This document shows, piece by piece, positions 1 to 57,167 of a DNA stretch of 64,000 nucleotides. Both the position numbers and the translations under genes were made by a program. The stretch comes from Psammoneis japonica (lineage: Eukaryota), in the NCBI GenBank assembly GCA_008632985.1, contig QPGO01000163.1, positions 62,001 through 126,000 of the forward strand. Reading direction: 5' to 3'. The notes under the pieces are model-generated. The model ran no database searches and was not told the DNA's origin. It saw only the letters and a list, made by a program, of their open reading frames with translations. Each line of letters opens with the position of its first letter. Positions within the stretch are counted from its first letter, which is position 1.

Positions 1-1066
1 TTCGTGTGTTTTTTTGTTGAAAAGGAGAGGGCAGTTCACTGCTGTCAAGAGCCAGACATGCACCACAGCTCAAGTTGACCATGGGAGGAATGGCTGCGCA
101 CCAACGGGTGTGCCTTCGATTCCCTTGGAGGTGATTTCAACTCATGTTGTCAGGTGACAAACAAAATCCAAGCCGATGTCATTGGGATTTCTGAAACTTG
201 TTTGGACATGTCCCAACCTCAGATTGCTCAGACATGTCAATCAGTGGTCCAAAACACATTGCACTGCAGTCGTGTTGCCTTCTCAGCATCGTCACCAGTG
301 TTCACAACTCCCTGCAAACCAGGAGGCACAGTCATCACATCCTGAAACTCCATTGCTTCCCGGTTTCACACAAAGAGTGAGGACTCACCAGGCAGATGGT
401 CAACTCAGATGTTCAACGGGAAACAGGGAAAACAGGTGATGTTCATTTCTTGCTGTTGTGTGTGCCGGAACAATTCTTCCACCGCGGGAAAAACTGCCGC
501 TTGTGCCCAACAAGTCAATTTGCTCCAACAGCAAGGTCGCGCACAACCTGAGCCAAGGCGGGCCTTTTGTTCTGATCTTTCCCACATCCTGGAAGCTTTT
601 CTGGACCATCCTCACTGTGAAGTTGTTCTCTTTGGAGATTTTAGTGCAGATTTTTGTCTCATGACACTGACCCATTGGCTTGCATGGCCGCACGTTTCAA
701 CCTGTCTGATGTTGTGTTCCAACAGATGCAAGAAATGGATTTTGCAGCTTGTCTCTGAGGATCTTGTCATCTTGACCACGTGTTGGCGACTCCAGGGGAA
801 CTTAATTTGGTGTTGCAATGTGGTTGCAAACCGTTTGGATGCCGCGTCTCTTCCGATCACCTCGCGTGTTTTGTGGATTTCGATGCGGAAAAGCTTTTTG
901 GCAACTTGCAGCTAGACACTCCAAAACCCACTCAGCAAACTCTCCAAACGAATTCTCCACAACAAGTTGCAACACATTTGGATGCCATTGGTCCCGTGTT
1001 AGAGAGTGGGAATGTTCTTCAGTGTAGCATGTTGCTTCTTGAGGCCACAACCCCCGATCATCTTTT

Positions 1067-1462
1067 GGCGCGTTCCAGCTCTAGGTGGGACCTCGCACTG
1101 CTGAACTGTGACACAATTATTTTTTATCATCCGTCGCATGTTTCGCACGTACATTTCTACGTGTTCCATTGTAAAAAATTGTTCCACACTGCCTGTTTTG
1201 CGAAGCCAAAGGCTTTCTGTTATCTAAATTTATGACAATAAAAATGCGCTGGGTGTGTTCTTTAATGTCTGAAGAACACACCCGGGCATGCTGTAAAGAA
1301 TGTACTTCAAGTGTGGAGGAGGAGATACGTTCGCAAAATTGCCTCTTTTTCTGTTGGCGATAATTCATGTATTCATTGCTTGACAATTTTACTGCAGAGC
1401 TCGCACGTAGAATTCTACGGGCCCAATGTCACAAAAAGTCCCACCCAGGACTGGAACCCGTC
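1067..1462 (+). mobile_element. MITE, GAC-terminus family, subfamily A copy 1 (396 bp)
   Basis: Imperfect ~26-bp TIRs (GGCGCGTTCCAGCTCTAGGTGGGAC / GTCCCACCCAGGACTGGAACCCGTC); 4-bp TSD TTTT at 1063-1066 and 1463-1466; homologous to 2324-2720. Confidence 0.9.
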
Positions 1463-2323
1463 TTTTAGCGGAACGCTTGGATCGTGACATGACAAAGTTT
1501 TGTGTCTCTGCTGCCAAACAATGCCGACAGCATCATGAAGCTGCTTGGTCCCTCAAGTTGGCTGATCTGCGGAAGAAAGTCTTTGTTCTGTCTCGACTGC
1601 TGTCCATGTGCAAAAACCGAGTGCACACTTCATGGCACCGATTGTTCGAGAATGATGCAGAGTGCGAGAGTCTTTCACGCTGCTGTCTGCTCAAGCAGAT
1701 TGTCAATCGGCTCTCTGTCAAGCTCAGTTGGAATGCAAACAAATGGCTTGTGAGAGCCTGATGCACAGGGAAAAAGAAAGAGACAAATGCATCGCAGCAC
1801 CAGATTTGGAGAACACACCGGAAGCCGCCAAAGAGTCCAAGATCCTGCGGAATCTCAGGTGCGCTGAAGAAATGACCTGAGTGTTCTGCAAAACAAATGC
1901 CTTTGCAGACAAAGACAACTCCAGCGCAAGCAACATCCAGGTCCCTGCTGATCCTTCTGAAAATCCTAAAACCTGTGACTCCTGGGTGACAGTTGACTGC
2001 CCGGCTGATGTCACTTCGGCCCTCATTGCACAAAACAAGAAGCACTTTGGCCAAGCTCACAGGACCCTGCTCACAGTGCCTCCCTTGGCACTTGGACTCG
2101 GACATGCAGGAAATGCGGTCATGGCAGAATTGACACTCGATGGTGATTGCGACACCTTTGGTTTGTCTGAAGCCACGGCTTTGCTGTCAACACACCTCCG
2201 TCGCTGCTCTCCTGTCTCTGTTTCAAATTTCCTCACTGCAGAAGACTTGCATGGGAAATTCAAATTGTGGTCTGAACTCACCTCAATGTCTCTCAAGTCT
2301 GGCTTGCATCTCGGACATTGGAA

Positions 2324-2720
2324 GACGCGTTCCAGCTCCAGGTGGGACCTCGCACCACTGCACTGTGACATCAACAGTTTTTTGGATCGCGTCGCATGTC
2401 GCGCGCGCACATTTCTACGTGTCATGTTCTACGAAATTGTTTCATGCTCCCTGTTTTGCAAAGCCAAAGGCTTTCTATTTTCAACATTTGTGAGAACAAA
2501 AATGTGCTGGGTACATTCTTTAATGTCTGAAGAACACACCCGGGCAAACTGTCAATGATGTGCTCCAAGCATGAAGGAGGAGATGCGTTCGTAAAATTGC
2601 CTCTTTTTCTGTTGGCAATCGTTTGTATTTTCATTGCAGCATAAATTTACTACGGAGCTCACACGCAGAATTCTACGGGCCCAATGTCACACGGAGTCCC
2701 ACCCAGGACTGGAACCCGTC
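2324..2720 (+). mobile_element. MITE, GAC-terminus family, subfamily A copy 2 (397 bp)
   Basis: Termini GACGCGTTCCAG...CTGGAACCCGTC; 4-bp TSD GGAA at 2320-2323 and 2721-2724. Confidence 0.92.
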
Positions 2721-2891
2721 GGAAGGCCATGCATGCTGACCATCTCCATTCCAAGGCTTGTGACAAACAATCACAGGAAACGAGATCAACCCATGTTGCA
2801 CGACGTGATGGGGGAGTGAAATCGACATGTTGGGTGTCCCCTGTCATGCGCTCCACACGATTTCACCATGAACGCATCTTGGGGGGTTTGC

Positions 2892-2950
2892 GTGCATGCA
2901 GAGGGAGTGCATGTCACGTGACCCCCCACATGCACTCCCCTTGCATGCAC
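2892..2950. repeat. Inverted repeat, 23-bp arms with 13-nt spacer, possibly the core of a decayed foldback element
   Basis: GTGCATGCAGAGGGAGTGCATGT (2892-2914) versus ACATGCACTCCCCTTGCATGCAC (2928-2950), 2 mismatches. Confidence 0.65.
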
Positions 2951-3359
2951 CTGTCCACGTCATGCCCACGTCATCATGAACACCTCCAAGGTGCTTTGCA
3001 TTGTCACAACTGCGTCATCCTCTCCCACGTCATCCTGACATCATAACGTTTTAATGTTTGTGACCATCAAAACAACTGCTCCACGTCACCAATTGCAGCA
3101 CACCACCTTTTAAACACAGGCTCTTTTTAGAATGCATGCATGGTGGGATTTTTCCCGATGCTGGCAACGACAGAAGCCGACGCCCCTTTTCTACAGCAGG
3201 TTCTACAACAGCCAGTCATTGCGCAACAGTTTCTTTGTTCATTTTAACCACAACAAAGAGCACTGTGGAGCATCATTGCATTTGGCAGAAATGTTGAACT
3301 GCCCAAACTAACAACTGTCATGCCACACATCACTGATGAAACAAGCTGCCGCATTGACC

Positions 3360-4526
3360 TCAGTTGCTTTGCCTCGACTTGCGACCACGCCCTTCCACAG
3401 GCACAGCCTGCTCAAAACATTCACCTGCACAATGCACCATTCCACAACAACCGTGATTTTTTCCATCACACAACCACGCTTTTTTCTTGTCATTCTTTTC
3501 CCACTTGTGATTGCGCCCGGCTTTCTTGCCCACCAAACCTGCAACTTCCCACCAACTCTCACACAGATGGAAATGATCCTGGCTTTTTTGATCATGGCAA
3601 TTGCACTTCAAATTGTTTTTAATTGCAAGTCGTTGCAAGTCATTGCTGCAATCCCAACAAAACATTTTGTTGTTCTCATCTGCCAACGAACAGGTTGCGT
3701 GCACGGACGCAGCACACAAATGACACTTCAACTTGTTTGACACAGTCGTGTTGCAGACCAGGCACTTGGGTTCAACCGGCTTGGATTGGGGCTTTGGTTT
3801 GGCCTTGGGGGCTTTTGCTGATGGTGCTGCTTTAGACTTAGAACGCTTGGTTCCTGTTTTGGCACGCTTGGTGCTCACGTTCAAACCCCTGGTTAAATTT
3901 GGCAGCACACCAGATGCCTGTTGCTGTGCCAGTTGCCTTGCCAAGTCAATCTGATCAGTTGTGTCTGTTTCAACCTTTCCATTTTTGCGCTCTTTTCTGG
4001 CTCTGTCTCCCAGTGCTCGATGATTGTTTTTTGCCACCTGCTGTTCCAATGAAAAACAGGTTGGCACGGTGCCAACCGCTGATGTGTTGCCGCACCCGTC
4101 TTGACTTGCCTTTTTGATTCTTTCACGCTGTTCCATCAACTTGGCCTCATCACCACGTTGCTGCATTCTTGCTGCGTACAAGTTCATGCCCTGCAAAACT
4201 TCATCACTTGGATTCCTCTGATCCATTGCATGAGCATTGGTGCTCCATGTGGCTTTGCCATTTTCGTCACTTGCTCTCATGTTTGCTGCACAAGCACCTT
4301 GCAATCCCACGTCGTTGTGTGCATGGCACCGTTCAATGCAGCCAGTCCATGGCTGTGCTGTCATTCTCTTGGATCTCTTGCCAAAACGTCTCCTGGCTTT
4401 CTTCTGCACTTGTTGTGGTTGCATAACGTCCGCAGAGATCTGCAGGCTGTTGCGTTCCAGTTGCAGCTGCAGAGTGCTTGTTGTGGCAAACATTCTCCTT
4501 TTTTCTGGACAATTTTTGTGCTTCAT
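3360..4526 (-). pseudogene. Transposon-associated ORF with PHD-type zinc finger and a second Cys cluster
   Basis: CLVC...CHLCAASVHATC...FCWDC fits C4HC3 PHD spacing; its C-terminal CDGKNHGCCGMV segment recurs near 46040-46140; TpA-depleted. Confidence 0.55.
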
Positions 4527-4529
4527 GCA

Positions 4530-6050
4530 ATGATGTCTTCAATTGTGTGATGTCACCATCAGACCAAGCCATGGACTTCAACCAATCTGGCACAGGTTGA
4601 TCTGTGGGTTCTTGTCTGGATCCCATCTGAGAGCCCAACAGACAGGATGCACAAGCTTTGGAAGCAACATGTTGTCATTGCAGTGCTGGAGCTTTTTGTT
4701 TGCGATGGACATGCCACTCTTGTCATTCTTGTCTGCACGAAAAAGGACCACAAGATGGCCGTTGATTTCTGCAGGGCAGGTGTTTGTAGATGTTGGCTGG
4801 TGAAAATCCAGAATTTCAACAGCCAAGATGCCATCGGGACAACTCTCAACAGGAAGCTCCTCCTTGGTGAGACCAGCAACCACAACATGTGGAGGCGCCA
4901 TCAAGCCACCAGCTGCGTGAGCAAAGGTGAGCCCCACTCAAAGGCCACCCCACTCAAAGGATTGTTGTCAACCTTGCACCTTGAGTGCACCCCAGCCTCC
5001 TCCTTTGGATCAATGAGTTTCCAGCTCCATTTGCCCTTTTCCTTGGCTCCTTCAAAAGCAAAAACAGCGCAGCATCATTGGTCAACAGCAGAAGATTGGG
5101 GTTGACAGGAAATGTTTTCTCTGCACTCCATGCTTTTTTCACATGATCAACAGTTTCCTTTGTGCCATCACTGAGCTCAGACTTGTCACAATGCTCCCAT
5201 CCTCTCTGGGGTTTGGGCCACTCAATGAAGTGCATGTCAAGGACCACATTTTGATGTGTCAATGCTGCTTGAATTGAGCTCACACTGACAAAGTGCATCT
5301 CCATCTGACTTGCTGTTTTCCTGTCTGTCAACAAGCACTGTGCACCCTTTCTCATGGCATGTGAAATCAATTGAAGTTTGGCAGCATCATTTGAGACTTC
5401 AACACCGCTTTGCTCTTCCATCACTTCTTTTGCTTCAGGAAGGCCAAACATTTTTCCACCAGTGGCTTTAACCTTCTTAATGAAAAGCACTTGAGCAGTG
5501 GCATGGCTTGTCAGGTGGGGCCAACCAACACGTCCTGAGGGTCCCTTCCTTGGCAGATTGCAGACATTTGAGATGTCAGAGCATGGACACCACTTTGACT
5601 GAAAAGCACACTGAATGGCCTTCCTTCTTTCTTTGCTCTCTTTTGGGAGGCAAGCAATGTGCTCGTAGAGCTCTTGCTTTGTCCAACCAATGGATCTGTT
5701 GATGGGGTCAAGGACAGGTGGACCAGAGTTGATGTCGTTTGGTGGTGTTGCAAGCTTTGCCCTTTTTGATCATCTCACTTCAACATTTGGATCCTTTTCT
5801 TTCAAAGCTGTTGCCTTCTTCACACTCTTGGGTGCTCTCATGAAAGACTTTGGCTGCCAAAGAGGGTCCAGGGGCGGATTGTCATGACACTCCTCAGCTT
5901 TTGCTGAATCACATGGCTTTGACAAACATTTCACAGTTGAGAGTTTGCCAACCTGCTTGCATCCCTTGGAACACATCTTCTCAGAAGTCTCCGCCAACAC
6001 ACCTGGTTTTTTGCAAGAGGCTTCTAGATTTAGCCAACTCAGCTTCATTT
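4530..6050 (-). mobile_element. Decayed putative DDE (pogo/Tc1-like) transposase
   Basis: Fragmented frames with LLLTND, TFAHAAGGLMAPPHVVVAG and AWSDGD resemble the DDE_1-type core (AxGxxxPPxII; DG). Family call is by eye only. Confidence 0.4.
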
Positions 6051-6479
6051 TTCAATTCCTTTGCCACAGTTTTAATGTTCTTGACTTGATCAAGTAACTC
6101 TGGCATCTCTCATGCGCCTTGAGCATGTTGTGTGTCAACAACATGTTTCCTGTTTTGTGGTTTCTCACTTCTGCCACCATTGCCTCTTCCATTGGCATGG
6201 AAGCCATCATGTTGAGACTCTCTCATGTTGTGACAAACATCATCATGAAACCACCTTGCGCCTGTCACCCTCATGTTTGAATTCAAACAAGTGGGTTTGA
6301 ATTTTAGTTCTGAATCATTGAAGCACTTTGCGCCAAAGAATGAAACAAAAAGCATCAACAATTGCAAGAACGAGACCAACCGCCAAGTGACAACAGAGAG
6401 ATGCACACAGCACCTCCTTTTTTAAAACACATTTCTGATGTGGTGTCAAGGCACCACAACAGGTCATGACACGTGCAGT

Positions 6480-9190
6480 GCACAGTTAATTTGGTGTCTT
6501 GCAAGTGGCGGCAATCAATTGGCCATTGTCACAGGTGAGAAGATTGTTTGAAGATCAATTGCAAAAGCAAAAACTCTTCTGTTTGCGCTTCCCCGCACAC
6601 AAAAATGTGGCCAATTTGTCAATGTGGTCAATTTTCTGCATGACTGGCTGGGACTGGAACTTGTCCGGTGTGCTTTGTGATGCCTGTGGTGGAGTTTCCC
6701 TTTCAAAGGAAGTGCGCTGGGCACTCTGGTTGGGTGTCACAGAAAACTGCACAGACAATCCCACCTGAGTCTGGGAGGCCCATCATTCACAAGGACGTGT
6801 GGGCTCTCACCAAGGATGACTTGAATGCTGACACAATGAGCAACCGTTTGGAACTTCTAGATGCTGCACTTTCTGTCAAACTGGGTCAGGATGCAACCAA
6901 GAATGATGAGTCCCTGCCAAATCCACCAGAAGATCTCTTCACCAATGATGAAAAGAATGTGGGGCCATTTGACTCTGACTCATCACACCCCAAGGTGGAT
7001 GAACATGCACCCAAGGAGATGGATGAACATCCCATGGCAGAGGTGTTGTTGCCTGGGGGTGGTGAACTTAAACATGCAAAGGTCACAAGCCCTGAAATGC
7101 AGTGTGGACAGAGTGGAGTTGCCAGACAGATCCACTGATGCTTTCACGGCCAACGCAATTGCTGAGAATGTCTTCTCCCAAGCAGATGATGGAGGCAGGA
7201 CGCACCAGATTGTGAAGGAGATTGTGGGTCACCAAAGTGACGCACGCATCATTGGCAAGGACGATGGGTGTTGCACCACCCGCACAAGCACTTGAAGACC
7301 CAGATGGACCACTGTCAGATGGGACCTGCAGATCAAATGGAAGGGCAGAACATCCAACTGGATGCCTCTCTCTGAAGTCAAGGAATCGTTCCGGACACAA
7401 GTGGCTGAGCATGCAGTTGCCAACAAGATTGCAAGAGAGACAGCATTCAACTGGTGGGTGCAGGACGTCCTGCATTGCTGTTCCAGGATGGTCATGAAAG
7501 TCAAGACTGGGTGCTGGAAGCACATGTGCAAATTTGGGATCAAGCTCCCAAAGACTGTGTCACAGGCACTTGAGATTGACCAAAAGACAGGACTGGACCT
7601 TTGGATGGAGGCAATCAAGAATGAGATGAAGAGTGTCATGCCTGCATTTGAATTCTCTGAGGATGATGAGATGCCATTTGGGTGCAAACAGGTCCAGTGT
7701 CATGTGGTGTTTGACATCAAGACATGCCTCACCCGGAAGGCCCGTTGTGTTGCAGGGGATCATCCGACAGAACCACCCAAGGAGTTGAATTGCTCCAGTG
7801 CAGTCTCTCATGACAGTGTCAGGACAGCCTCAACTGTCGCCACACTTGATGATCTTGACATCATGTGCACAGACACACAAAACACTTGCCTTGATGCAAA
7901 GACCAAGGAATGGTGTTGTGCTGCTGCTGGCCTGGAATTTGGGAAGCAAAACAAGAACAGACCCATCAAGATTGTTGGGGCACTTCATGGTCTCAAGAGA
8001 TCTGGAACTGCACTCTGCCACCACATGGCTGCCACATTTCATGAAGCAGGGCTCCACTCTAGCAAAGGGGGTCCCAATGTTTGGATGTGCAAGGCAGTGA
8101 AGCCAGGTGGCTTCTCAAGTGTTGGGAACATGCACTTGCATGTGGACTCCATGGCTTCCCGCTGTGTCCTCAAGGAAGGAAGTGTCATGGAGCCAGAAGA
8201 GTGCCTTGGCGCACAGATCTGAAAGCACCAATTGCCTGAGTCAGATGGCAAGATGCATTGTCCTCTGATTTGCACGTCAAAAGGGCAATTGCTGACATTG
8301 AATTTGAGCTCTGCCAGGCTGGCAGAAGCCTCAAGTCCAAGGCTTCAACCCCCTTGAGATCTGGGCACAGACCGGAACTTGACAGTTCCCTGGGAACTGG
8401 GTGCCTGGAGGGCAAGCCACTGCCAGGGACTCATTGGGGCATTGTGCTGGATGGTGGAACAGGGGTGCATTGACATCATTGTGGCCGTTTCACTCATGTC
8501 ACCACATCCAGCCGCCCCGAGGGTGGGTCATTTGGACAAAGTGCTGCACACATTTGCACATTTGAAAGCACATGCAAAGTCACTCTGTGATGGTGTTTGA
8601 TGACGCTGAGCCTGCTTTTGATCAGTCTTGTTTTCAAAAGTGTGACTGGTCTGAGTGTCATCCTGAAGCAGCCAAAGAGCTGTTCCAATGGACACTCCCA
8701 AAGCATGGGGGATTCGGGTCACTGCCACTTGTTTTGTCAATGCGAGTCATGCTTGCTGTTGTGTGACTTGAAGATCTCACACTGGAACAACAATTTTCAT
8801 GCAATGGGCATCAATCTTGTGGTGCTCTAAATGGCAGAACACTGCAGAGTCATCAACTTTTGGGTTAGAATTTGTTGCGATGAAAACTGTGGTCAAGCAG
8901 ATCAAGGCCTTGCATCACAAGCTTTGGATGCTTGGGATCCCAGTGGAGGGGGTGCCGACCAATGTCTTTTGTGATGACAAGGCCATGTTCAAGAATTTGA
9001 CTTGACCAGAGTCAATGCTTGAGAAGAAACACAGTGCCATTGCCTGTCACCGGAGCTGCAAAGGTGCAAGCAGCGGGTGTTGTGTCACCTGGGATGATGG
9101 ATGCACAAATCCAGTGGATGTGCTCACCAAGCTCATGCCCGGACAAAAGCTGTGATTGGCTCATTCGTCACATGCTGTGGTGAACAGATT
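6480..9190 (+). mobile_element. Decayed Ty1/copia (CoDi-like) pol: integrase C-terminus, RT and RNase H
   Basis: CHVVFDIKTCLTRKARCVAG, ALHGLKRSG, CQGLIGALCW and WCSKWQNTAESSTFGLEFVAMK...NVFCDD match copia RT/RNase H motifs, with Tyr replaced by Cys/His. No LTR identified. Confidence 0.9.
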
Positions 9191-10720
9191 CATCCAAAAT
9201 GGACAAACCAGGATTTTCTCCTCCAAAATGGAGGGGTTTTGCCCACCCCACATGAAGAAGCAATTCCCTGGAATGGGGCGGCAATGCAGAAGGTGCAGGT
9301 TGTGTCGAGCTGACCCGACTGGGACCACTGATGCCAGCTCATGGGGACTGAGCAATTCCAGCCATGCCATCGTCAAATGAGTGCCAGGACCATTTGGCAA
9401 AGAACACCACTGTTGCTCAAACATTGGGTGGTGCAGAGTGACCCTCACATTTTTTTAGAATCCTGTTGATTGCTGCACAGCACTTTTCTGTCGCATCTTG
9501 TCAATTTCTTAGCGGCTGTGGCATGATTTGCTCATTTCTTCAAACTTGCCCTGATTTTCTAGACTCAATCCAATGTTGTTGTAAATTGATGCCGTGCTGA
9601 GATGATTTGGGCCCAAGATGACTTCACAAACTGCAAGACACTTGCAACGTTCCACCAACGCAGCATTGCATTCTCCAATTTCCTTGCAAATTGTCCCAAC
9701 ATTGCAGGCCGTTCAAGCAATCTTGAGTTGCTCTCCATTTGTGGAATCACTCCATCCCAAATTTCCTCAGATTCGTGAGGCTCTGTTTTAGAGCACCAGT
9801 CAGGTTGCTGTCTTTTCAGAAGAGTGCAAACTTCAAAGTGTGCCGTGCACCGCAAATTGAACTTTGAGTTTTGGCTCCCTCTCTGTTCTGCTTTTTTTCC
9901 TGCTTTGATCATCCCCCACAGTCTGCAAGGAGAGTGCAAATGATTGTCATCTTTGTCCACAAGCTTGTCCTCAAACACCTGCACAAGCACTGTTGCATGC
10001 ATCTCATTGTTGCATTTGCACACATTCGGAATGGTTTTTTTTGCGCATCCACGACAACGGGGTCATTCACATCAAGTGGTTTTTGGCATGCCACTGCATT
10101 TTTGGGGTGAAGCACGGACTCGTTGGAGGTGCAGTGATTGACCTTGTGCTCCATGAAGCCACATCACAAAGCAATGACTTTTGCATTTTTTTTTCACACA
10201 CAGAAAACATTGGCATGGTGGGATTGCGGATCTTCAAAAAAAGAGCAGTCACCCACTCCAAAAAGTGGCGCTGTCTTGAGAGCGACACTTTGTTCCACAG
10301 GCTGCACTGGTGTTGCTCCAGTGCATGCAGTGCCGGCTGGCTTGACAGCAGCAAAATTGAAAGTGGCTTGGTGTTCCTCAGCACATCATGTGAAAGTGTC
10401 AGGGTTGAATTTTCTCCCACGAACACACCACGTTCTGCTCCCATCAGCCCACGTCCTGCACAGATGCAAGAGGGGTGCATTGACACCATCAGAGTGCACA
10501 ACATTGCAATGTCTGCACACATGATAAAAACATGTTGCCACATTGTAAAATCTTCTTATCTGCGTACGATGGTCTTTGTTGTGTGTTCAATTGTTGGTCT
10601 CATGCCATTCTTCATGTTGGAACACGGATCGTTTTAAATTTTATGCTGCACCTTTTTCACAACAACAAACGACATTTGTCAACAAGGCAAACATTGCAAT
10701 TGCATGCAACACCATTTTCA

Positions 10721-11569: not shown

Positions 11570-14500
11570 ATGGCGCCGCGTGACCCATCGGTCACCGGTC
11601 TGTTGCAAGACAACAATGATTCTGACCTCAAGGAGGCCGCATTTGAATCTCTCTTTACCAACGGTTTTGGAGTGATTGATCGCAACGAGCGCAGCCGTGT
11701 CAAAGCGACAATCGAGATGGTGAAATCCAAGGTTCAGTTTCACCGGGATTCCACTTATGACCCCTCTCCGAATTGGATCGCGCTTGCCTGCGTGTGGCAA
11801 AAGCGCAAGGGCAGACCTCATTTTTTTGTAGAGCTGGTGGCTGTGAACCGCATTGTTGCAAAGGAACTTGGGTGCAAGAGCTTGCTGCACTTTCTTTCCT
11901 CAAAAGGATGGAGTCATTCCAGTCAAGGCGCCAAATTTCCTCATGCGTTGGAGCACCGCCGTGCTCCCAAAGCAGAGGATGTGAAAGTTGTCAGCGACAA
12001 AGCAAAATCAACAGACATCACTACGAACAAGATGGCCAAGATTTCCATGTTGTGCAAGCTTCTCCATGATCCCGGATTGTGCGACCCAAAGGGAGAGCCA
12101 CTTGTGAAGCACATCAAGCTGAGAAGTTTTGAAGGCAAGGTTTTGCATTTCGCACAATGCCTTCACATTGGTTTTTTGATTCTTTGTGACAAGATTCTAC
12201 TGCACGCACCTGAAAGGAATGGTGACTACGATCATTGGCTTTGCTCCCTGTTTGGCGAATGTGACAAGACATCGACTTACATCAACTTTTTGGAGAATTT
12301 CCTGGCTCTTGGTCACTGCGAGACAACCAAAGACGAAAGCCCCATGTCCTTCCCTGAGTTCGTAAAGTCGTTGTTCCGCCAACACAAAAGCTCTTGGGAA
12401 AAGCCTCTGCGACTGGCGATGCTCAATGTCGAGCGCGAACAAATGTGTGCAAGACATGTTGATGAGACTCTTTTACGATGTGTGAAAATCCATCGTGTGG
12501 TTTCCGTCGCTGACGATTCCGGCAAAAGCAAGGCTGCAAGGGATTGGTTTGAGCCCATGTGGAAAGCCAGGCTTCATGACTTTGCCACTCAGCACAAGAA
12601 GAAAGAAATCGGCAATGCAATTCCCTCTGCCATGAAAAATGCTGGGAAACGAAAAAATGAGAATGGCATGGATCCATCACATTGTTTGATTGATTGTTTG
12701 TCCTCCTCCTCTTGTCTCTAATTCTTTGATTCTTCTTGCCACCTCTTTGGCCGCCTCCCTTTGCTCCTCAAGCCCCAGTCTCAAAAACCCCAAACATGGC
12801 GCACCTTCTGACATTTCTCAGAACAAATCGCTGATTCTCCAAGATGCGCCGACTGTCGAGGAACAAACAGAACATTCCCGAACCAAGTGGCCGACCCTCG
12901 GCACCAGTGATCAGTCACCTCCTCCTCTGCCAGACAATTTCACAAAAGAAGAGCTTGATCAATTGTTTCCTGAACCTTCTCCATTCGCGATTCCGGGCGA
13001 GGCAAAGGCACAACATTCTCGCCTTTTTGCATTTGAGCAAACACCCGCTTCCGGTTCCTTTGAGGGGAACTGTGCTGAGCACCAGTTGTTCCACAGCATC
13101 TCCGAGTTCCACTTGGTGAACCACCTCCACAAGTTTTTGCATGGATTTGAAAACGGCATGTCTCCCAATGATCCGACGCAAGAATCGATGGTTGCAATTG
13201 CTCACCCGACCCAGTCGACCTCTCATTTTTCCGAAGCGGTCACTCATTTGTGCTGCACAGACAAGATTTGTCAGAAATGCTTTTTTGGATTGTGATTCAG
13301 TGTGTCGTCGACAGTCCGTCATGTGTTGGAACATGGCAAGGCAGATCACTCAAGGGATGGACCAGGATGCAAATTGCCCTGTCGGATGTGTTTTGGTTGT
13401 TGTGGCCAGAATTTTGAAGTCACAGAGGGTGAGTTAGCTGAAGTTGGACCTGCTCACAGGCCTGGTGCTGCATTTGGCAGGGATGATTGGGAGAAAATTC
13501 CCAAGGTTGTGCAGCCAATGATTGCCTCAATCTTGGATGCCGTGCAACTGTGCGAGGACGAAATGAATCTTGTTGCTCTGAAACTGATGCATTCCTTCCA
13601 TGACCCGTGCCGTGACAGTCTTTTCACGGCCGAGCTCCGTAAGATGGTTGGAGCCAAGCATTTTAGAAGGGAAGGCGTGGAAATTCAAGTGAAGTGCATC
13701 TCCTCGTCCGGTGGAAAAGCCGTGGATCCGAACACCGAGGCACACATTGACCAAGAGAATTGTGACAAGGATGGGTGCACTGCAACTTGTGCTCTTTGCA
13801 CCACACTCTGAGATGCTGTTGGTTGCTCTTGGTCGATGAAGGTTGTCTCCGCATCCAAAGGCAAGGCTGGCAACTGCGTCAATTCGGTGCATGCACATGC
13901 CGAGTTCCGATCGCGTGTGCAAGGGCATTTTGCAAAACTTGATCTGTCACATGCAGCAGAAATGATGAGTTGCCGTGGCCCTTGTCGTCCTCCCTGTGGA
14001 AAGCCAACCCACAGAAACATCAAAGATTGTTCCCAAACCAAGTGGCCGACCCTTGGTGCCAGTGATCAGTCACCTTCTCCTCTGCCAGACAATTTCACAA
14101 AAGATGATCTTGATCAATTGTTTCCTGAACCTTCTCCATTTGCAATTCCGGGTGAGGTGAAGGCACAACATTCTCACCTGGTTGCATTTGAGCAAACACC
14201 TGCTTCCGGTTCCTTTGAGGGGAACTGTGTTGAGCACCAGTCATTCCACAGCATCTCCGAATTCTACTTGGTGAATCACCTCCACAAGTTTTTGCATGGA
14301 TTTGAAAACGGCAGAGCTCCCAATGATCCGACGCAAGAATTGATGGTTGCGATTGCTCACCCGACCCAGTCGACCTCTCATTTTTCCGACGCGGTCACTT
14401 GTTTGCACTGCACGGACAAGATTTGTCAGAAATGCTTTTTTGGATTGCGATTCAGTGTGTCGTTGACAGTCCGTCATGTGTTGGAACATGGCAAGGCAGA

Positions 14501-17148
14501 CAACTCAAGGGATGGACCAGGATGCAAATTGCCCTGTCGGATCCGTTTTGGTTGTTGTGGCCAGAATTTCGAAGTCATGGAGGGTGAGTTAGCTGAAGTT
14601 GGACCTGCTCACAGGCCTGGTGCTGCATTTGGCAGGGATGATTGGGAGAAAATTCCCAAGGTTGTGCAGCTCATGATTGCCTCAATCTTGGATGCCATGC
14701 AACTGTGCGAGGATGAAATCAATCTTGTTGCTCTGAAACTGATGCGTTCCTTCCATGACCCGTGCCGTGACAGTCTTTTCGCGGCCGAGCTCTGTAAGAT
14801 GGTTGGAGCCGAGCATTTTAGAAGGGAAGGCGTGGAAATTTAAGTCAAGTGCAAGTGCATCTCCTCGTCCAGCGAAAAAGCCGTGAATCCAAACACCGAG
14901 GTGCACATTGACCAAGAGAATTGTGACTTGGATGGGTGCACCACGACTTGTGCTCTTTGCACCACACTGGGAGATGCTGTTGGTCACTCTTGGTCGATGA
15001 AGGTTATCTCCGCATCCAAAGGCAAGGCTGGCAACTGTGTCAATTCGGCACATGGGCATGCCGAGTTCCGATCGCGTGTGCATGGGCATTTCGCAAAACT
15101 TGATCTGTCACATGCCGCAGAAATGATGAGTTACCGTGGCCCTTGTTGTCCTCCGTGTGGGAAGCCAACCCACAAAAACATCAAAGATTTTTTCCTTGAC
15201 CCTCACTCTGTGTGGGTTCAAGAGAAAATTGGCAAGCCAAATCTTCCATCCGACACAGCCAAGCATCCCGTCATCGTCATGCGGAGGAAACGTCTTCCAT
15301 TTGCCATTGTGAAAGACTTCAATTTCTCGTGCGGTTGTTCGGCCATCATTGACAACCTCGATGAGGTTGGTGTGCATGATTGCTTTTGTTGCGCCGTTGT
15401 GGGTGGGTGTCAAACCGGATTCTCCCGTTTTCACCACTTGTTGTGCAACACAGATGGTGTGAAACGTCCTTTTGAGGCTGGCGATCGTGTCCCACATTAC
15501 TTCAGAGAAGCCACTGGGCTTTTTGGCAGCATTGTGGGGGATCGCAATGACCGACGCATGCAGAGCCCGGGACTCGATTTCAAGGAGGTTCATGTGGCAG
15601 AGTGCGGGACGAAACTTAATGGTGTGATGGACTTGATTGTCGGCGGACTGGTTGCCATCATTGACTGGATCAATGACAATGTGGGAAAGCCCGCGTTTGA
15701 CCACAAGGCAATCAAGGATGTGTTCAAAACCGTGGTCCAAACATGGGATCATGCGGGTGCTGATTGTGGAGAGTTCAGATGCATGAACTCAATGCAGATG
15801 TTGATGCTGTGTGGCACAGGGATCCATCCTCACCCTGACCTTTGTAATCTTGTCTATCCGGCAGCCAAGTTGGGAGCGGCAAAGCAAATGGAGGAAATGA
15901 AGGTCCCGGTGGAGGAGCGCGATTTACTCTTGGAACGGACAGAGGGTGATTTTGATTTGCAAGACTGTGGAAAGAATGGTCCGGAGTCTTTGCCATGCGA
16001 CCTGAGTGCAGCTTGTGAAAAGATGGGAATCTGCAATGTCTTTTGGATCAGCGCAATTTACTCTTGGAATGGACACAGGGTGATTTTGATTTGCAAGACT
16101 GTGGAAAGAATGGTCCAGAGTCTTTGCTCTGTGACCTGAGTGCAGCTCGTGAAAAGATGGGAATCTGCAACGTCTTTTGTTGCGGACAGCATCCATTGCT
16201 CCTGTTCTCTGATGGGCAAACAATGATCAAGCGGTTTGGAATGTAAGAATGGGAGCCAGTCCCACTCGTGTCGATTGATGAAGTTCGACACAAACTTGAA
16301 CGGCAAAGGTTGAAGAGGACTCAAGCGAGTTAGGAGATTGCATCGCAAGTGATGAAACTTGCGGGGAAACACACAATGCACTGTGGTTGGGGATGACACG
16401 TCCGCTCAATGCAAGGCAGCCATCTTCTCAAGAATTGTGCTCTGAGAGGGGGGTGGCCTTAGTGTCGTCCGACCAACAGAGGCGAGACGAGGCACGCGCC
16501 ATGGCATTTGAGGAATCTGACAAAACGGTTGAAAATGTTGTTCTGACTGTTTCTCTCCAAGACAGCCATCCAGATCTGCACTTAAATTGCAATGTGAAAG
16601 CAAGAGATTTCATCAAGAGAGTCAAGCGGCACTTTGAGAAAATTGTTGATTTCGACAATCATGGGTTTGACCAAATCATGTTGGACTGCTGCTGGATGCC
16701 AGATGGAGAGTGGCGCGACACTCGTTTTGGGAATGCTCAATTTTTCCAGAATCTGATGGACCTTCGTGGCTTGCTCTCAAAAAAGAAAGAAGGGGGGGAT
16801 GTGGTGATTCCCTTTGCTCTTGTAACCTTCTTGCAGGTTGTCAAACAATGGGAGAAATTGTCTGCGGTGTTCAACATTTGCACAATGAACAGTGATGTTG
16901 CAAAGGACAACGCAAGTCTGTTCTTTACAAGTGACCTCATTGCCCAAGAACAACGAGAACGGTGGTTGGGAAAGCCTTCTGATCAGGAAGAAGCTCATCT
17001 TGGAGTTTCAGAAGAAGACATCAGAATGAAAGCAGCAGAAAGTGTTCGCACGGCACTGCTTCACGTGTGCCGCAACGAGTTGTGCAATTCAGACAGGATC
17101 AAATTCTTCATGTTTGACACAAAAGAGTTGGGAAATCACTGTGAGTGA
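11570..17148 (+). pseudogene. Large cargo ORF(s) of copy A with TET/JBP-like HxD, HhH-like and SAM-methyltransferase-like segments
   Basis: Chain of long ORFs (11417, 12690, 13302, 13836, 14883, 16387) homologous to copy B; motifs HIDQENCDKDG, GEFRCMNSMQM...YPAAKLGA, FDQIMLDCCWMP. Confidence 0.6.
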
Positions 17149-17169
17149 ATGTCAGAATGACACACGAGT

Positions 17170-19130
17170 CCCATTTTAGAAACAAATCTGACCAACACTT
17201 CCTTCTGTCCTGTGTGGCCCAAACAAATGTGGCCTTTTCTTGCGCTTCCACTGCTCCTGGATGTTCTTCATAAACCAAATCATTGTCACCAATTGCTTCG
17301 ACAGGGACCACCCGTAACTTGGGTGAGTGCTGGGTGTTGTCAGGCATAGAAAGCCAGTTGTTTCGTTTGTGATCAAGCTGCCAGCGACTGACCAGCTCTG
17401 TGTGCTGAAACCTTTGCCTCACAGTTCTTTGGTCAGCCTGACAAGCACTTGGATGGACCACTGCAAAAATTGATCCTGTGTCTTCCTGTTGGATGAAACA
17501 CAGCAAAAGGGAGGGAAACTGTTGATCGCCCTTTCGTGTCTCAAAGGACACACAGGCACAGTCATGCCATGGGCCTTCGCTTTTGTAATCTGGGTGTGCA
17601 TGGTGTGCATCCCTCCCGTTTGCATTGTAAGATACGTTGTGTTGCTTAAAGTGATGCAAGATGCCCAACCATTGTCATCGTTGGCCTTGGTTTGCACTTG
17701 TTGGATGTCAAGTCCACGGATAAACTCGCATTCAATCCATGGGTTGTCAAGTTTGTTGAAACCAGTGAGGCAAAAACGACAGCAACGTTGATGACAATTG
17801 TGACCTCCGCATCGTCCTACGAGGCAGTCAGTCGCCGCTTTTTGCATCTCCTGTGATCAGAAAGATCATTGGGATTACGCGGAGGTGTCGCATCTCATCA
17901 CCTCATCGCACGCATGTTTTCATGCTGCCTTTTCTCATTGCTTCCAAAAGTGGATCCAAAACAACACACGCAAGCAAGTGTGGCAGTCTCTTGACAAGCG
18001 TCCCTTCTCCGCCTTGCGATTGTTTGAGAGACTCTTTGCCGCCGCCGACAAAATCTTTTCCAAATCAGGCAGATGACCAATTGGTTTCCAGACACTCTTG
18101 TCTGACCATTTGTTGAAGGCAACATGCGCAGAGATCATGATCGCTGGTTCTCCGCAATGTGATCCCATCCTTTGTGTCCACCGGTCTTGTCAACGTAAAT
18201 GACAAGACACTCAAGAAATTGTTTCTCCAGGTCAGTCATCCGTTCTTTGCAACTACGCCTGTGCCACTCACCCACCAAAATGCACTTGTCATCTGGTCCC
18301 TTCACTTTGCACTTCCCAAAAGGATTGTCTGGATTGGCCAGATTCTCTCTGCTGCACCACAGGTGAGGATCGAGCAAATGCTGTTCCCAAACCTTTGTGA
18401 AATCCCATCTTGGCACTGACACTCGACAGGAATAGACTCGCTGGGTGGGAGAGGGAAATGCTTAGACATCAACTCTTTTCTCCTTGGCAGAACTGCACCA
18501 AGCTTGATGTTGCTGTTCCCAGTGTGCCTCTCAATGAAATCAACAATGCAGTTGCACAACTCCAGGGGAGCACCACGTGTGTCCATGAGCTTCTTGCACA
18601 ACTCTGCGCAAGCTCCGTCAACATTGGTCAAAGAGGGAGTGGAAGCCAAGGCCTCATCACCTGGAGCGTGATGCCCAGACCCCAAACGTTGGTCGTCATC
18701 GACAATGTCCTCTTCCTCCAGCATTGTCACGTCCAACACTGCAGCAAAGGATTGAGCACCGGCAACATCCAAATCGTTCATTGCTAAAAATTCATCTCCA
18801 TTCACACTGTGGTTTGATGAAACAGAGGACAGGTCATCCATTCCATGCGGTTTGTCATTCGGGGAGGGGAACAAGGGGCTGCTGCTCCGGCCACTCATTG
18901 CAGTTCTTGGGAATCCACTACAAGCAGAGCGCCTCGGATGGGATTTGTCGTCATCAGAGGACGATGAGGAAGAACTGCTGCTTTCTTCAAGTGGCCCCTC
19001 TGTTGTGCCTGGAATGTCGCTTGGATCTGGGATTGGATCTTGTGTTTGCAACTCTTGGGTGACTGAGCAACACGTTGGTGAGAATCTCCAATGGCAGGAC
19101 ATTCGTAAAAAACTTTTGCCACACCCGGGA
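17170..19130 (-). pseudogene. Plavaka-like transposase of copy A, deleted internally
   Basis: Homologous to 38710-41955; LVIYVDKTG, DCLVGRCGGH...CCRFC, HAHPDYKSEGPWHD. Confidence 0.75.
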
Positions 19131-24569: not shown

Positions 24570-25193
24570 TGACATCTGCTCTGGCAAGTCAAAAGAAACC
24601 CCTTGCCATTGCACTCAGAGTGGCTCGCCGCCTTTGCCTTGTGATCTCCACTTGACTGGCTGGTCGCGCTCGGCTCTTGGTTGCGCATGCAGCCACGCAG
24701 AGCTCCAGCACTCTTGAGCTGTTGTCGATTGAGTCTCTCCAAGTCAATTGATTCTCAGTCCTGAACTTGCACTTTTTTCGCAACAGGGCTCCCCATCCTG
24801 CATGCTGTTCTGTGCAGCAGTCATCAGTCAAGTCACCCCACGAAATGAACACGCGACCTGCGTTTCTTCTCCTGTGCGGAACAAATTCTCTCTAAATGAC
24901 TGACACGACCTGGTCGACAAGGATGTTCTCGCGCGGAAAGCTCGCGCGCGCCAAAAATGACACTAGTTACAGTCAACCGTGAAGATTGAAAATAAAAAAA
25001 TCAATTATTGCCTGATCGGAGGAGTCGACATGCAACTCCCGCATGTACAGTACAGCATTAGAATACGGTTACTTTCCGTTGTAAAAGTATATAAACCTTT
25101 AATTATGCAGATAATGATTTGCTGTTACCTTCTCTCTTCCGGCAGTTGTTTTTGTTGACCCTCCCTATCTATCCACCACGCACTCGCAACATT

Positions 25194-26276
25194 ATGCTCA
25201 CCATGATGCTGAAAAAGAAGCACACCGAAAAGCCAGAGCTGACAAAGGAACGTCAATCGAGCACAGCCACAGCCGTTACTGCAACTACTATTGATGATGT
25301 TGAAACTGCTGCAATGGAAGCAATCGAAACAAGCATTGCTGTTATAGCCGGTGACAGCAGCAACAGCACAACAGTATTTTGTACTCAAGTTCCGGTGGGT
25401 AGTGACGAACAACAACATGAAGTTTGTTTGGTGCAAGAACAATACAATGAAAACGAAAGCTTCAATACTCGATGGAGCATCAAGCGACCTCGACAAAAAT
25501 TACTCCTTACTCTTATATTATTGGCACTGGCAGTTGCGTTATCGATTGGAATAGCGGTGGGATTAACAAGAAGAAAACACCGAGACGAGCAAAGCAACAA
25601 TAGCAACAATACCGGTACAAACAGTACTCCGCCTGGTGAGTCTCAACAACAACAAAACAATAATACTACTGCACCAACAATAGCACCATCACCTAAACCA
25701 TCATCCACGTCGTCATCACCACCAACAGCTCCACCACTTTCGGCGGATGCAAAAAATTGGCTCGATGCACACAATTCGCGTCGAAGAGCCTTTTTTGCAA
25801 AACATAATGTCTCAAATGTCGATTTGCAATGGAGTCCCGGCGTGGCTGCCAGTGCCCAAGTGTATGCCAATCGATTAATTGCCATTCCCGACGAGTGCGA
25901 AATACTTCACGGATTGGATGGTGATCGGTACGGTGGTGAGAATCTAGCCATGAATTGGCGTCGTGGCTCTTCCAACAATAGTACCAACCCGCGTTCACGA
26001 GAAGATGTGTTAAAAAGTTGGTATAATGACGAAATCCATTTACAAGATCGAAACAAGATACACTTTTCTCAAGTTGCCTGGCGTGCGACACACTATTTGG
26101 GTTGCGCCGAAGCAACCAAACCCCTTTGGGACGGACACTGCTATATACAAGTATGTCGTTATGTGCGACCCGGAAATTGCAATGTCGATTGGACCAATTG
26201 GACGCATGTGACGCAAAGCATGTTGCGAGAGAAGAGTGCATGCAAACCACACTGTCCACCGGAGGGGTGTGTATAA
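25194..26276 (+). CDS. CAP/SCP/PR-1 superfamily protein with one transmembrane helix and a Pro/Ser/Thr linker
   Basis: WLDAHNSRR, LQWS, YGGENLA, SWYNDE, HFSQVAWRATHYLGCA, VCRYVRPGNC; TM LLLTLILLALAVALSIGIAVGL; normal TpA. First in-frame ATG used. Confidence 0.9.
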   Translation: MLTMMLKKKHTEKPELTKERQSSTATAVTATTIDDVETAAMEAIETSIAVIAGDSSNSTTVFCTQVPVGSDEQQHEVCLVQEQYNENESFNTRWSIKRPRQKLLLTLILLALAVALSIGIAVGLTRRKHRDEQSNNSNNTGTNSTPPGESQQQQNNNTTAPTIAPSPKPSSTSSSPPTAPPLSADAKNWLDAHNSRRRAFFAKHNVSNVDLQWSPGVAASAQVYANRLIAIPDECEILHGLDGDRYGGENLAMNWRRGSSNNSTNPRSREDVLKSWYNDEIHLQDRNKIHFSQVAWRATHYLGCAEATKPLWDGHCYIQVCRYVRPGNCNVDWTNWTHVTQSMLREKSACKPHCPPEGCV

Positions 26277-27136
26277 TGTGATGCTAATACAAGTATGTAG
26301 AGGAGAAGACGGCATTGTCTAAAAAAAGCAACTCTTGGCTTTTGGGAAAAGGAAAATGCGCATTATTTCAAGAATAGACCTGTCTAAAACTTGTAACACT
26401 ACGATAACAAGGCTCGTCTTGGAGTACAGCGACAAGATGAACAGCACGAGTATCCAAGCAAAAGAGAAGTATGTGTGTACCACGGCGAGACTTGGCTACT
26501 AGTAGAGTCCGATGAAGAGAGTTCGTACTCAAGTGATGGTGCACGGCAAGGAGTCGGAATTGAAAGAAAAACTACTTGATGATGTCTCTGCTACAAGATT
26601 TTTTTTCGAATAACTATAGACATTGTTATTTGCGACAAAACACAGTACCGCAATGTAAACCACCCATTCATTGGTTGGTTCTTTCGGATCCCCGACAAGC
26701 CACATAGAAGTAGTAAGTCTCAAGCTAAAGTCTCGCCCTTTGGGGGGATTTGGAGGTTCATGGCGAACCAAGGGACCCACAAGGATGGAGCCACGTTTGG
26801 TTTCTGAATTTGTGAGAAACAAGATAAGCATTATGAAATTGATTGTCGAGCTTATCAAACCCAAACTAAGCTTGTGTGGATTTGCCGAGTGATGCGGTAC
26901 GTGGAGAACGCACTTATTATTGTCCACCTCAGACTCAGCAACAGCGACGCGACGAGCAATTAAATTGAAATCTCTGAAAGGGGGTGAATGGATGAGACGC
27001 AAGGATTCGAATGAGAATGGCGCTTTTCCAAGTTGTCTTGAAATAAGTATCCTGCTATAAGTTTATTAGCATGATGATATATTATGTACAACAAACAGGA
27101 CGAGCACCGCCAACTAAAAAGCCATCACTATTACAA

Positions 27137-30100: not shown

Positions 30101-31093
30101 CATTCTCATGCTTCTTCTACAAAATCACACGATGCAGCCAACGGTGCAACCGAAAAACGTACGAGTCAATTTTGGCCGAGGCGGCGGATTTCGAGTCTTG
30201 TTCTCGTTTTTTTTTTCCAATGCCTGGATTTCACTTTTCAAAGTATCGGAAATGCCCTCGTTGTTGCCCAAGCTCAAGAGCGTCAAACTCCCATTGTGTT
30301 GTTGTAGGGTTTGCAGCAACGCTTTTCCACCGTCGACACCAATTTGGTTGTTGTAAAGACAGAGCTCTTTCAATGCGGAGTTGGTTGCCAGTGCCGTTGC
30401 GAGTGCTTCTGCACCGTCATCACCAATTTGGTTGCCATAAAGATGGAGCTCTTTCAATGTGGAGTTGGTTGCAAGTGCCGTTGCGAGTGCTTTTGCACCG
30501 TCGTCACCAATTTTGTAGTTACCAAGATCGAGCACTTGCAATGTGGAGTTGGTTGCGAGTGCTGCTGCGAGCGCCATTGCACCGTTGTCACCAATTTGGT
30601 TGTTGAAAAGACAGAGCTCTGTCAATGTGGTGTTGGTCTTGAGTGCCGTTCCGAGCGCTTTTGCACCGTCGTCACCAATTTTGTTGAAAGAAAGATTGAG
30701 CACTTGCAATGTGGTGTTGGTTGCAAGTGCCGTGGCAAGCGCTGTTGCACCAACGTCACCGATTTGGTTGTTGCAAAGATCGACCATTTTCAATGTGGAG
30801 TTGGTTTTGAGCGCCGTTGCGAGCGCACTTGCACCGGCGTCACCAATTTGGTTGCAGTAAAGATAGAGCTCTGTCAATGTCGAGTTGGTTTTGAGTGCCT
30901 CTGCAAGCACTTCTGCACCGTCATTGCCAATTTGGTTGCTGCCAAGACGGAGCACTTGCAATGTGGTGTTGGTCTTGAGTGCCTCTGCGATCGCTTTTGC
31001 ACCGGCGGCGTCAATTTGGTTGCAGGTAAGATTGAGCTCTGTCAATGTGGGATCATTTTCCCGGAGACGACAGCAGGCTTCGTCGAGTCTCAT
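27137..31093 (-). CDS. LRR-ankyrin-coiled coil-Ser/Thr kinase-Cys-rich protein (~1251 aa); exons 31093-30163, 30047-28996, 28909-27137
   Basis: About nine 28-aa RI-like LRRs; ankyrin repeats (GSTALYHAS, GKTPLMAAS); kinase IGNGRFGTV, FAVKK, HRDIKPSN, DFG, MAPE. Introns 30048-30162 (GTACGT..TAG) and 28910-28995 (GTAAGT..TAG) join all three ORFs in frame. The LRR-ankyrin join is inferred. Confidence 0.8.
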
Positions 31094-38687: not shown

Positions 38688-38709
38688 ATGTCAGAATGAC
38701 ACACAAATC

Positions 38710-57114: not shown

Positions 57115-57167
57115 TCCAAGGTGCCATCTCTGCAAGAACACATAGGATTGACGCAACTGACTTGCCT

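What the first reader, a model, noticed from the sequence alone, without database searches (positions are those of the whole stretch)
600..9800. Surviving TpA sites are mostly YTAR: a context signature
Seen: in the most decayed DNA (excluding the young MITEs) the remaining TA sites are mostly TTAA, TTAG, CTAG or CTAA (e.g. 641, 803, 913, 3832, 6024, 6487, 6858, 7069, 8060, 9560). RTA and TAY are nearly gone, and their products TGCA, TGTG, CACA and CATG dominate. YTAY sites resolve either way (TTAC->TTGC, CTAC->CCAC). Inference: a 5' purine or a 3' pyrimidine promotes mutation, as expected of a sequence-selective enzyme and not of GC-biased gene conversion.
Basis: partly seen in the sequence, partly recalled or inferred. 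Interest (0 to 1): 0.7.

Follow-up and report, generated by a model that had tools for sequence, protein, structure and literature searches.

The report
Sequence fingerprint of diatom TpA mutator
In this diatom's dead mobile DNA almost every TA step has been rewritten to TG or CA, fastest when the A is followed by T or C and slowest inside runs of T or A, which gives a sequence fingerprint for a still unidentified A-to-G genome mutator.

Summary
Observation confirmed. Outside two MITEs, 600-9800 keeps 42 TA steps; 32 are YTAR against 24% expected (p 2e-12). Copy comparisons show the cause: a repeat-directed TpA>TpG/CpA process, acting after insertion on both strands. In one MITE subfamily A>G hit 601 of 2639 TpA adenines and 43 of 6443 others. 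A model on 182 sites in 104 copies puts the main signal on the base 3' of the mutated A (T 3.5, C 2.9, G 1.2, A 1). The '5' purine' effect is mostly its mirror on the other strand. T at -2 and A at +2 also protect. YTAY sites do not go either way: 83 of 98 favour the TAY strand. The signature rules out RIP, Pol eta-type WA, ApT-6mA, ADAR-type UAG and GC-biased conversion. I found no strand clustering or hairpin effect. A DNA adenine deaminase fits best, but no enzyme is identified. TpA hypermutation is known from one preprint on Bigelowiella natans, whose main text gives no flanking context and no diatom. This scan has noted the same signature on other pieces of this genome.

The parts
600..9800 (.). 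TpA-erased block of decayed mobile DNA; 42 TA steps left outside the MITEs, 32 of them YTAR
1068..1462 (+). MITE, subfamily B (about 396 bp, GAC...GTC ends, 4-bp target duplication in relatives); 19 TA left against 33-34 in the youngest copies
2323..2722 (+). MITE, subfamily A; 11 TA left, flanked by a GGAA duplication
3250..6420 (-). Decayed repeat with relatives elsewhere; copies differ at TG/CA steps, and 11 of 12 TA steps shared between copies are TTAG or TTAA
6644..9200 (+). Decayed retrotransposon coding remnant (Copia-like label recalled from motifs; no Pfam hit); TA observed/expected 0.02 over 7100-9200
912..915 (+). Surviving CTAG that reads CTGG in run X1
8337..8340 (+). CCAA in the window that reads CTAA in run X1
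12500..17650 (+). Part of a large repeated element of unknown class (second copy 33391-42925); 30 genomic copies gave 116 TA-type columns
24964..30160 (.). TA-rich gene block (protein kinase and others) used as unmutated comparison, with 47044-49142, 54479-59329 and 62752-64000

Best explanation
A repeat-directed point-mutation process turns TpA into TpG (CpA on the other strand) in mobile DNA after it inserts, one site at a time and on both strands. The rate follows a motif on the strand of the mutated adenine: strict T at -1; T or C at +1; not A at +2; A favoured and T disfavoured further upstream (fastest near ATAT/ATAC, slowest in TTTA/TAAA). A TA step survives only if both strands are poor substrates, which gives YTAR inside T/A runs. 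Shown: specificity, direction, context, independence among copies, lack of strand clustering. Inferred: the chemistry is A-to-hypoxanthine deamination of genomic DNA by a sequence-selective deaminase brought to silenced repeats, fixed as G at replication, the same kind of process as in Bigelowiella natans.
For: MITE subfamily B, 39 copies against the youngest copies: A>G 601 of 2639 at TpA, 43 of 6443 elsewhere; TAT 272/893, TAC 206/698, TAG 55/426, TAA 68/622. Only 2 of 1313 scored TA sites became CG, so the first hit removes the target. Copies run from 34 TA to 0 while other substitutions do not track TA loss (rho 0.20, p 0.22). Model on 182 sites, 104 copies: +1 T 3.5 [2.7-5.5], C 2.9 [2.4-4.3], G 1.2 [0.9-1.8]; +2 non-A 1.8-2.2; -1 before T: C 0.74, G 0.58, T 0.52; -2 T 0.52 (A=1; 90% range of 60 site bootstraps). 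The model, trained outside the tested stretch, gives the 42 survivors lower rates than gene TAs (p 6.5e-16), also within YTAR alone (p 2e-4). Run X1 differs from the window at 2 of 34 TA sites and 1 of 6643 other non-CpG bases, a TG/CA double difference set aside (p 7.5e-5). B. natans precedent: 230 of 231 viral-region mutations A>G/T>C, all at TpA. The genome holds intact ADAT2-like, TadA-like and two ADAT1/ADAR-family genes.
Against: No enzyme is tied to the process. The ADAT2-like and TadA-like genes look like ordinary single housekeeping genes, and the second ADAR-family gene has relatives across diatoms, where no TpA erasure is reported in my searches. The one natural DNA-editing ADAT2 prefers GAA/TCG and hairpin loops (PMC10354150); here GAA changed 3 of 699 times and hairpin scores add nothing. 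No strand clustering, unlike processive single-strand deaminases. Sequence alone cannot tell an A lesion from a T lesion on the other strand. The +/-2 terms gain only 24 units out of sample and worsen the fit of one of three families; +/-3 terms do not generalise.
Confidence: 0.55

Rival explanations
1. Same process and motif, but the lesion is on thymine (5'-R-T*-A-3'): a T modification that pairs with G, made by a base-flipping enzyme at silenced repeats, for example a diverged RID/DNMT4-like methyltransferase or a thymine oxidase.
For: The motif reads equally well from the T. The genome has at least three intact DNMT4-like genes, one with motif VI ENV changed to EMV as in its four closest relatives. 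Diatom DNMT4 is related to RID (PMC9998398). TA loss tracks CpG loss per copy (rho 0.76).
Against: No Tet_JBP match (weak, the control rang only below cut-off). The DNMT4-like proteins keep the PC and motif-VI Glu used for cytosine (role recalled). PMC9998398 found no DNMT4 outside diatoms in MMETSP, which would leave B. natans without it. I know no T-to-C chemistry for this family.
Confidence: 0.17
2. Error-prone synthesis or biased repair in methylated or late-copied repeat chromatin inserts G opposite T after a T; DNA shape (stiff A-tracts) sets the flank effects.
For: Single, unclustered, strand-symmetric hits; T/A runs protect; both CpG and TpA end as TG/CA.
Against: Pol eta-type WA (recalled) predicts AA hits: 13 of 2913 against 601 of 2639 at TA. 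Transversions stay rare (A>C 5, A>T 20 in 9082). Presence of CpG within 8 bases does not raise the rate (coef -0.21 +/- 0.22).
Confidence: 0.18
3. Adenine methylation at TpA (or ApT) followed by deamination or miscoding.
For: TAT, which contains ApT, is the fastest class.
Against: ApT without a 5' T changed 16 of 1672 times against TAT 272 of 893, and TAC is nearly as fast.
Confidence: 0.06
4. GC-biased gene conversion, composition, stop-codon effects or a sequencing artefact.
For: Net change is A:T to G:C; TAA/TAG are scarce in coding comparison blocks, which inflates low/high ratios.
Against: Non-TpA adenines are hardly touched; the test against local Y..R frequency needs no coding baseline; independent contigs of run X1 carry the same TA-poor sequence with 11 differences in 6965 bases; survivors are shared between copies.
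Confidence: 0.02

Closest known systems
TpA hypermutation of integrated NCLDV and virophage DNA in Bigelowiella natans (Mettrop et al., bioRxiv 10.64898/2026.01.13.699255)
   Same: A>G/T>C limited to TpA, giving TpG and CpA; regional; aimed at foreign or mobile DNA; enzyme unknown, adenosine deaminase proposed.
   Different: Here a diatom; MITEs, retroelements and pseudogene copies across the genome; near saturation (TA o/e 0.02-0.1 against 0.45 for the NCLDV region); joined by CpG decay; flanking preference measured. The preprint's main text has no 'diatom', 'trinucleotide', 'flanking' or 'context'. Its Table S2 was not available.
Repeat-induced point mutation (RIP; RID/DNMT4) of fungi
   Same: Repeat-directed, dinucleotide-specific transitions at a YpA step; DNMT4-like genes are present.
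   Different: Opposite direction; C>T at CpA is 7 of 1865 here; copies hold intermediate loads with no strand clustering.
TadA/ADAT2 adenosine deaminases and TadA-derived editors
   Same: 5'-T(U) preference (rABE 68.8% U at -1); TadA-8e can mutate both strands in vivo; a TAY/YAC leaning is recalled, not confirmed in any paper I read.
   Different: TpA dependence here is near absolute; no hairpin effect; BjADAT2 prefers GAA.
ADAR family
   Same: 5' U preferred; a deaminase-domain gene of this family beyond one expected ADAT1 is present.
   Different: ADAR hot spot is UAG (PMC10661471), whereas TAG is slow here; the substrate includes MITEs and both strands are hit equally.

Membership tests
B. 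natans-type TpA hypermutation | A:T>G:C transitions confined to TpA | tested here: met
   601 of 2639 at TpA, 43 of 6443 elsewhere
B. natans-type TpA hypermutation | Both products, TpG and CpA | tested here: met
   116 columns: TG 1435, CA 1343; no strand term
B. natans-type TpA hypermutation | Regional, on foreign or mobile DNA and not on working genes | tested here: met
   TA-poor and TA-rich blocks; decayed methyltransferase duplicates TA-poor, intact genes TA-rich
B. natans-type TpA hypermutation | About 1000-fold rate per generation, active in some lines only | not testable with these tools
   No pedigree data; run X1 gives only 2 of 34 against 1 of 6643
B. natans-type TpA hypermutation | Acts on single-copy, silent DNA | not tested
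   All rate data come from multi-copy families; no RNA holder listed
B. natans-type TpA hypermutation | Same flanking preference and same enzyme | not testable with these tools
   Preprint supplement closed; enzyme unknown in both
Fungal RIP | C>T at CpA, G:C to A:T | tested here: not met
   7 of 1865
TadA/ADAT2 DNA deamination | 5' T preferred | tested here: met
   rABE passage
TadA/ADAT2 DNA deamination | Hairpin-loop substrate and GAA motif (BjADAT2) | tested here: not met
   hairpin coef -0.008 +/- 0.032, unpaired 0.18 +/- 0.25 on 145 sites; GAA 3 of 699
TadA/ADAT2 DNA deamination | Enzyme with Asn at the D108N/N113 position | tested here: inconclusive
   L208 reads GCRNDRFGG, L205 has Asp (position assigned by recalled motif); the Asn is common in ADAT2s that do not edit DNA
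Processive single-strand deaminases (APOBEC-like clusters) | Strand-coordinated neighbouring hits | tested here: not met
   z between -1.3 and 1.2 in 8 distance bins, 116 columns, 30 copies
ADAR editing | UAG hot spot | tested here: not met
   +1 G 1.2 against T 3.5, C 2.9; motif
Pol eta WA signature (recalled) | A>G at AA as well as TA | tested here: not met
   13 of 2913 at AA
TET/JBP thymine oxidation | Tet_JBP gene in the genome | tested here: inconclusive
   0 matches; control rang in 1 of 14, below cut-off
ApT 6mA-linked mutation | All ApT adenines affected | tested here: not met
   16 of 1672 without 5' T
GC-biased gene conversion | Context-free A:T>G:C bias | tested here: not met

The most novel reading that the evidence does not exclude
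This diatom has a dedicated natural DNA adenine deaminase for genome defence that edits TpA in double-stranded, silenced repeats one site at a time with a TAY preference and A-tract avoidance. A lead is the intact ADAR/ADAT1-family deaminase gene without RNA-binding domains at G000:C79, with relatives across diatoms. It would be the first programmed A-to-G counterpart of RIP, shared in kind between diatoms and chlorarachniophytes.
Probability: 0.35. Interest if true: 0.88.

Novelty: new variant of a known kind. Interest (0 to 1): 0.62.

Why it matters
A>G editing of genomic DNA as a defence has one direct measurement so far, without a motif or an enzyme. A strand-resolved motif makes the enzyme hunt testable: a candidate must give strict TpA, TAT>=TAC>>TAG~TAA, and no clusters. 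The same motif can test whether B. natans and diatoms share one mechanism. It also warns that repeat ages and GC-equilibrium estimates in this genome are distorted. A natural DNA adenine deaminase would interest base-editing work.

Tried and rejected
Paper searches (on TpA/diatom/hypermutation; 41, 44, 49 on TadA/ADAT; 60 on diatom DNMTs) found no report of TpA erasure in diatoms or of its flanking context; most subscription papers are outside the library. Passages of PMC13101598, PMC11662623, PMC13384257, PMC7884421 and PMC12455791 gave nothing usable, so the TadA 3' preference stays recalled. Strand clustering, hairpin or unpaired state, distal GC, nearby CpG and strand asymmetry gave no effect. 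TA loss in MITE copies does not track TA density of 300-bp flanks (rho 0.18, p 0.40, 24 copies). +/-3 and +/-4 terms overfit. Pfam named 3 of 17 window ORFs scanned, one below cut-off, and none of the repeat ORFs above it. Tet_JBP and MT-A70 searches were blank; the MT-A70 control rang nowhere, so it shows nothing. 18 metagenome relatives of a retroelement frame had TA o/e 0.49-0.91, but exact peptide patterns favour intact copies, so this does not show absence in other diatoms; they give an unmutated baseline of 798 of 4132 YTAR. No RNA holder listed. Back-mutation as the source of survivors was rejected because survivors are shared among copies.
Full report
Observation. The window is 48% GC and falls into TA-poor and TA-rich blocks: TA observed/expected is 0.02-0.3 per kb over 1-10000 and 0.66-0.69 over 25001-29000. 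A two-state segmentation gave 49,643 TA-poor bases and 13,395 bases in four long TA-rich blocks. In 600-9800 there are 72 TA steps, 30 in two MITEs and 42 outside. Of the 42, 32 are YTAR, 7 RTAR, 2 YTAY and 1 RTAY. Local Y..R frequency is 24.2%, so p is 2e-12. The ten cited sites are right within one base. TGCA and CATG are the two most enriched tetramers, TGTG/CACA ninth and tenth.

The pattern holds elsewhere. In 706 TA-poor tiles from other fetched loci (roughly de-duplicated, and drawn from related repeat families, so not independent), TA/(TA+TG+CA) was TTAA 0.055, CTAA/TTAG 0.034, GTAA/TTAC 0.022, CTAG 0.019, CTAC/GTAG 0.018, ATAA 0.0085, ATAG 0.0068, GTAC 0.0033, ATAC 0.0008, ATAT 0.0005; YTAR was 659 of 1229 survivors against 377 of 2155 in 89 TA-rich tiles. 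YTAR is therefore a fair summary for the most decayed DNA but not a sharp class.

Host and material. The genome is 91.4 Mb in 597 contigs. Named eukaryotic relatives of two of its genes are diatoms. The MITE end pattern occurs 366 times. Copies carry 4-bp target duplications and range from 34 TA to 0. Young copies with 27-33 TA sit in flanks with 1-5 TA per kb, so loss happens after insertion and takes time.

Spectrum. From 100 full-length MITE hits I kept the 39 with at most 9 transversions to one intact copy (subfamily B); most came from a similarity search that favours lightly mutated copies, and a few substitutions are shared by 3-8 copies. Against the youngest copies: A>G 601 of 2639 at TpA and 43 of 6443 elsewhere; C>T 59 of 1399 at CpG and 29 of 4809 elsewhere; 53 transversions. 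AA gave 13 of 2913, ApT without 5' T 16 of 1672, GAA 3 of 699, C>T at CpA 7 of 1865. Only 2 of 1313 scored TA sites read CG. TA loss tracks CpG loss (rho 0.76) but not other changes (rho 0.20). In the large element at 12500-17650, 116 columns in 30 copies hold TA 336, TG 1435, CA 1343, CG 15 (columns were chosen with at most one CG, and one-sided columns are missed). Copies are mostly independent (mean residual correlation -0.04; three pairs at 0.41-0.75).

Context. I fitted per-strand rates with a dose per copy on 182 sites: 34 in 39 MITE-B copies, 113 in 27 of 30 large-element copies (window copy and one of each of two close pairs dropped), 35 in 38 of 39 MITE-A copies (window copy dropped). 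Base 3' of the A: T 3.5, C 2.9, G 1.2, A 1. Next base: C 2.2, T 1.9, G 1.8, A 1. Base before the T: A 1, C 0.74, G 0.58, T 0.52. One further: T 0.52. All three families agree that T and C at +1 are fast. Leaving one family out, the +1 base gains about 400 log-likelihood units, the -1 base 16 alone and 58 on top, +/-2 a further 24 (one family worse), and +/-3 loses. So +1 is firm, -1 and +/-2 moderate, +/-3 unproven. Direction agrees: CTAC>CTGC 79%, TTAC>TTGC 76%, TAY strand ahead at 83 of 98 sites, p 1.4e-12. The model ranks the 42 survivors as slow sites (median 1.44 against 4.77 for gene TAs, p 6.5e-16), also within YTAR (1.27 against 1.91, p 2e-4). In TA-poor window DNA outside the training element, T at -2 and A at +2 are 2.1-fold enriched around 117 survivors. 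In the finding's own element at 3250-6420, six relatives differ from it at 148 TG/CA steps against 20 control swaps, and 11 of 12 shared TA steps are TTAG or TTAA.

Mode. Neighbouring sites in one copy show no strand coordination in 8 distance bins. Hairpin strength, unpaired probability, distal GC, nearby CpG and a strand term add nothing on 145 sites. Eight long contigs of run X1 cover 6965 bases of the stretch with 11 substitutions: 2 at TA sites (both YTAR, 913-914 and 8338-8339), 6 at CpG, a TG/CA double and one transversion. The process is thus recent enough to differ between the two data sets, and the TA-poor sequence is not peculiar to this assembly. X1 may be the same sample, the direction of these changes is not polarised, and n is small.

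Mechanism. Shown: a TpA-strict, two-strand, unclustered, post-insertion A:T>G:C process with a TAY motif. Excluded by counts: gene conversion, RIP, Pol eta-type WA (motif recalled), ApT-6mA, ADAR-type UAG. Inferred: deamination of dA in silenced repeats (0.55). A T-centred lesion (0.17) or error-prone synthesis (0.18) cannot be excluded from sequence. Candidates: PF00383 gave 10 matches, which I read by recalled motifs as dCMP deaminase, bacterial-type TadA, ADAT2, RibD and guanine-deaminase-like genes plus one decayed copy; PF14437 added none. PF02137 gave 4 matches in two intact genes; the C79 gene matches ADAR1/2 structures (best E 2.6e-11), and its 120 listed relatives carry only PF02137 and include many diatoms. 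Which of the two is the tRNA ADAT1 was not tested. PF00145 gave 29 matches, including intact DNMT4-like genes and TA-erased duplicates. None is tied to the process.

Known work. Mettrop et al. (bioRxiv 10.64898/2026.01.13.699255; I read abstract, Results and Discussion and ran a term search; Methods and supplements not seen) measured TpA-only A>G/T>C hypermutation in integrated viral DNA of B. natans and proposed ADAT2. Its Table S2 bears directly on whether the context matches. I saw passages only of PMC10354150 (BjADAT2: GAA/TCG, hairpins), PMC10661471 (ADAR UAG), 10.1101/2022.09.06.506853 (rABE, U at -1), PMC9998398 (diatom DNMT4 related to RID) and PMC10250238 (TadA-8e hits both strands). 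Searches found no diatom report. I reached the preprint through this scan's earlier notes, which describe the same signature on other pieces of this genome; I checked the preprint and the motif myself.

Verdict. Real feature. It works like the B. natans process and meets its testable sequence features; shared enzyme and context are untested. Novelty: new variant of a known kind. Interest 0.62.

Noticed in passing
L283:1114-2827 (G000:C79, about 344200-345900): Second intact ADAT1/ADAR-family deaminase gene besides the one at C40 (L284); relatives in many diatoms, no RNA-binding domain listed. Lead for the mutator.
   Followed up: partly
L250:211-2469, L249:1453-3573, L256: Several intact DNMT4-like C5 methyltransferase genes; L250 and its four closest relatives have EMV in place of ENV.
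   Followed up: partly
L253, L254, L255, L259, L262: Duplicated methyltransferase genes that are themselves TpA-erased (0-7 TA per 500 bp) while intact paralogues keep about 9-27.
   Followed up: no
window 30125-31105: Leucine-rich-repeat gene with an open 326-aa frame and internal repeats is TA-poor (2-3 per 250 bp) next to TA-rich genes; internal repetition alone may attract the process.
   Followed up: no
window 32828-33541: TA-poor kinase-like remnant (label recalled; no Pfam hit).
   Followed up: no
window 10487-21191 and 33391-44107: Two copies (87-93% identical) of a roughly 10-kb element of unknown class; none of its ORFs scanned had a Pfam hit above cut-off.
   Followed up: partly
window 1068-1462, 2323-2722, about 21660-22045, 24181-24570: MITE family with several subfamilies, 4-bp target duplications and near-identical young copies, so probably still mobile.
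   Followed up: partly
window 346-1067 and 1500-2320: Remnants resembling non-LTR retrotransposon endonuclease and reverse transcriptase (recalled motifs; no Pfam hit).
   Followed up: no
window 56203-57112 versus 61596-62775: A tandem repeat at 56-57 kb (about 80% identity) keeps its TA steps, while tandem repeats at 61.6-62.8 kb (96%) lack them; repetition alone may not be enough.
   Followed up: no
L212 (G000:C151): Decayed, TA-poor copy of a deaminase-like gene.
   Followed up: no
window 4001-9000: CpG is as low as 0.13-0.35 o/e here against 0.5-0.75 in the 11-20 kb element, which suggests an older or more methylated block.
   Followed up: no
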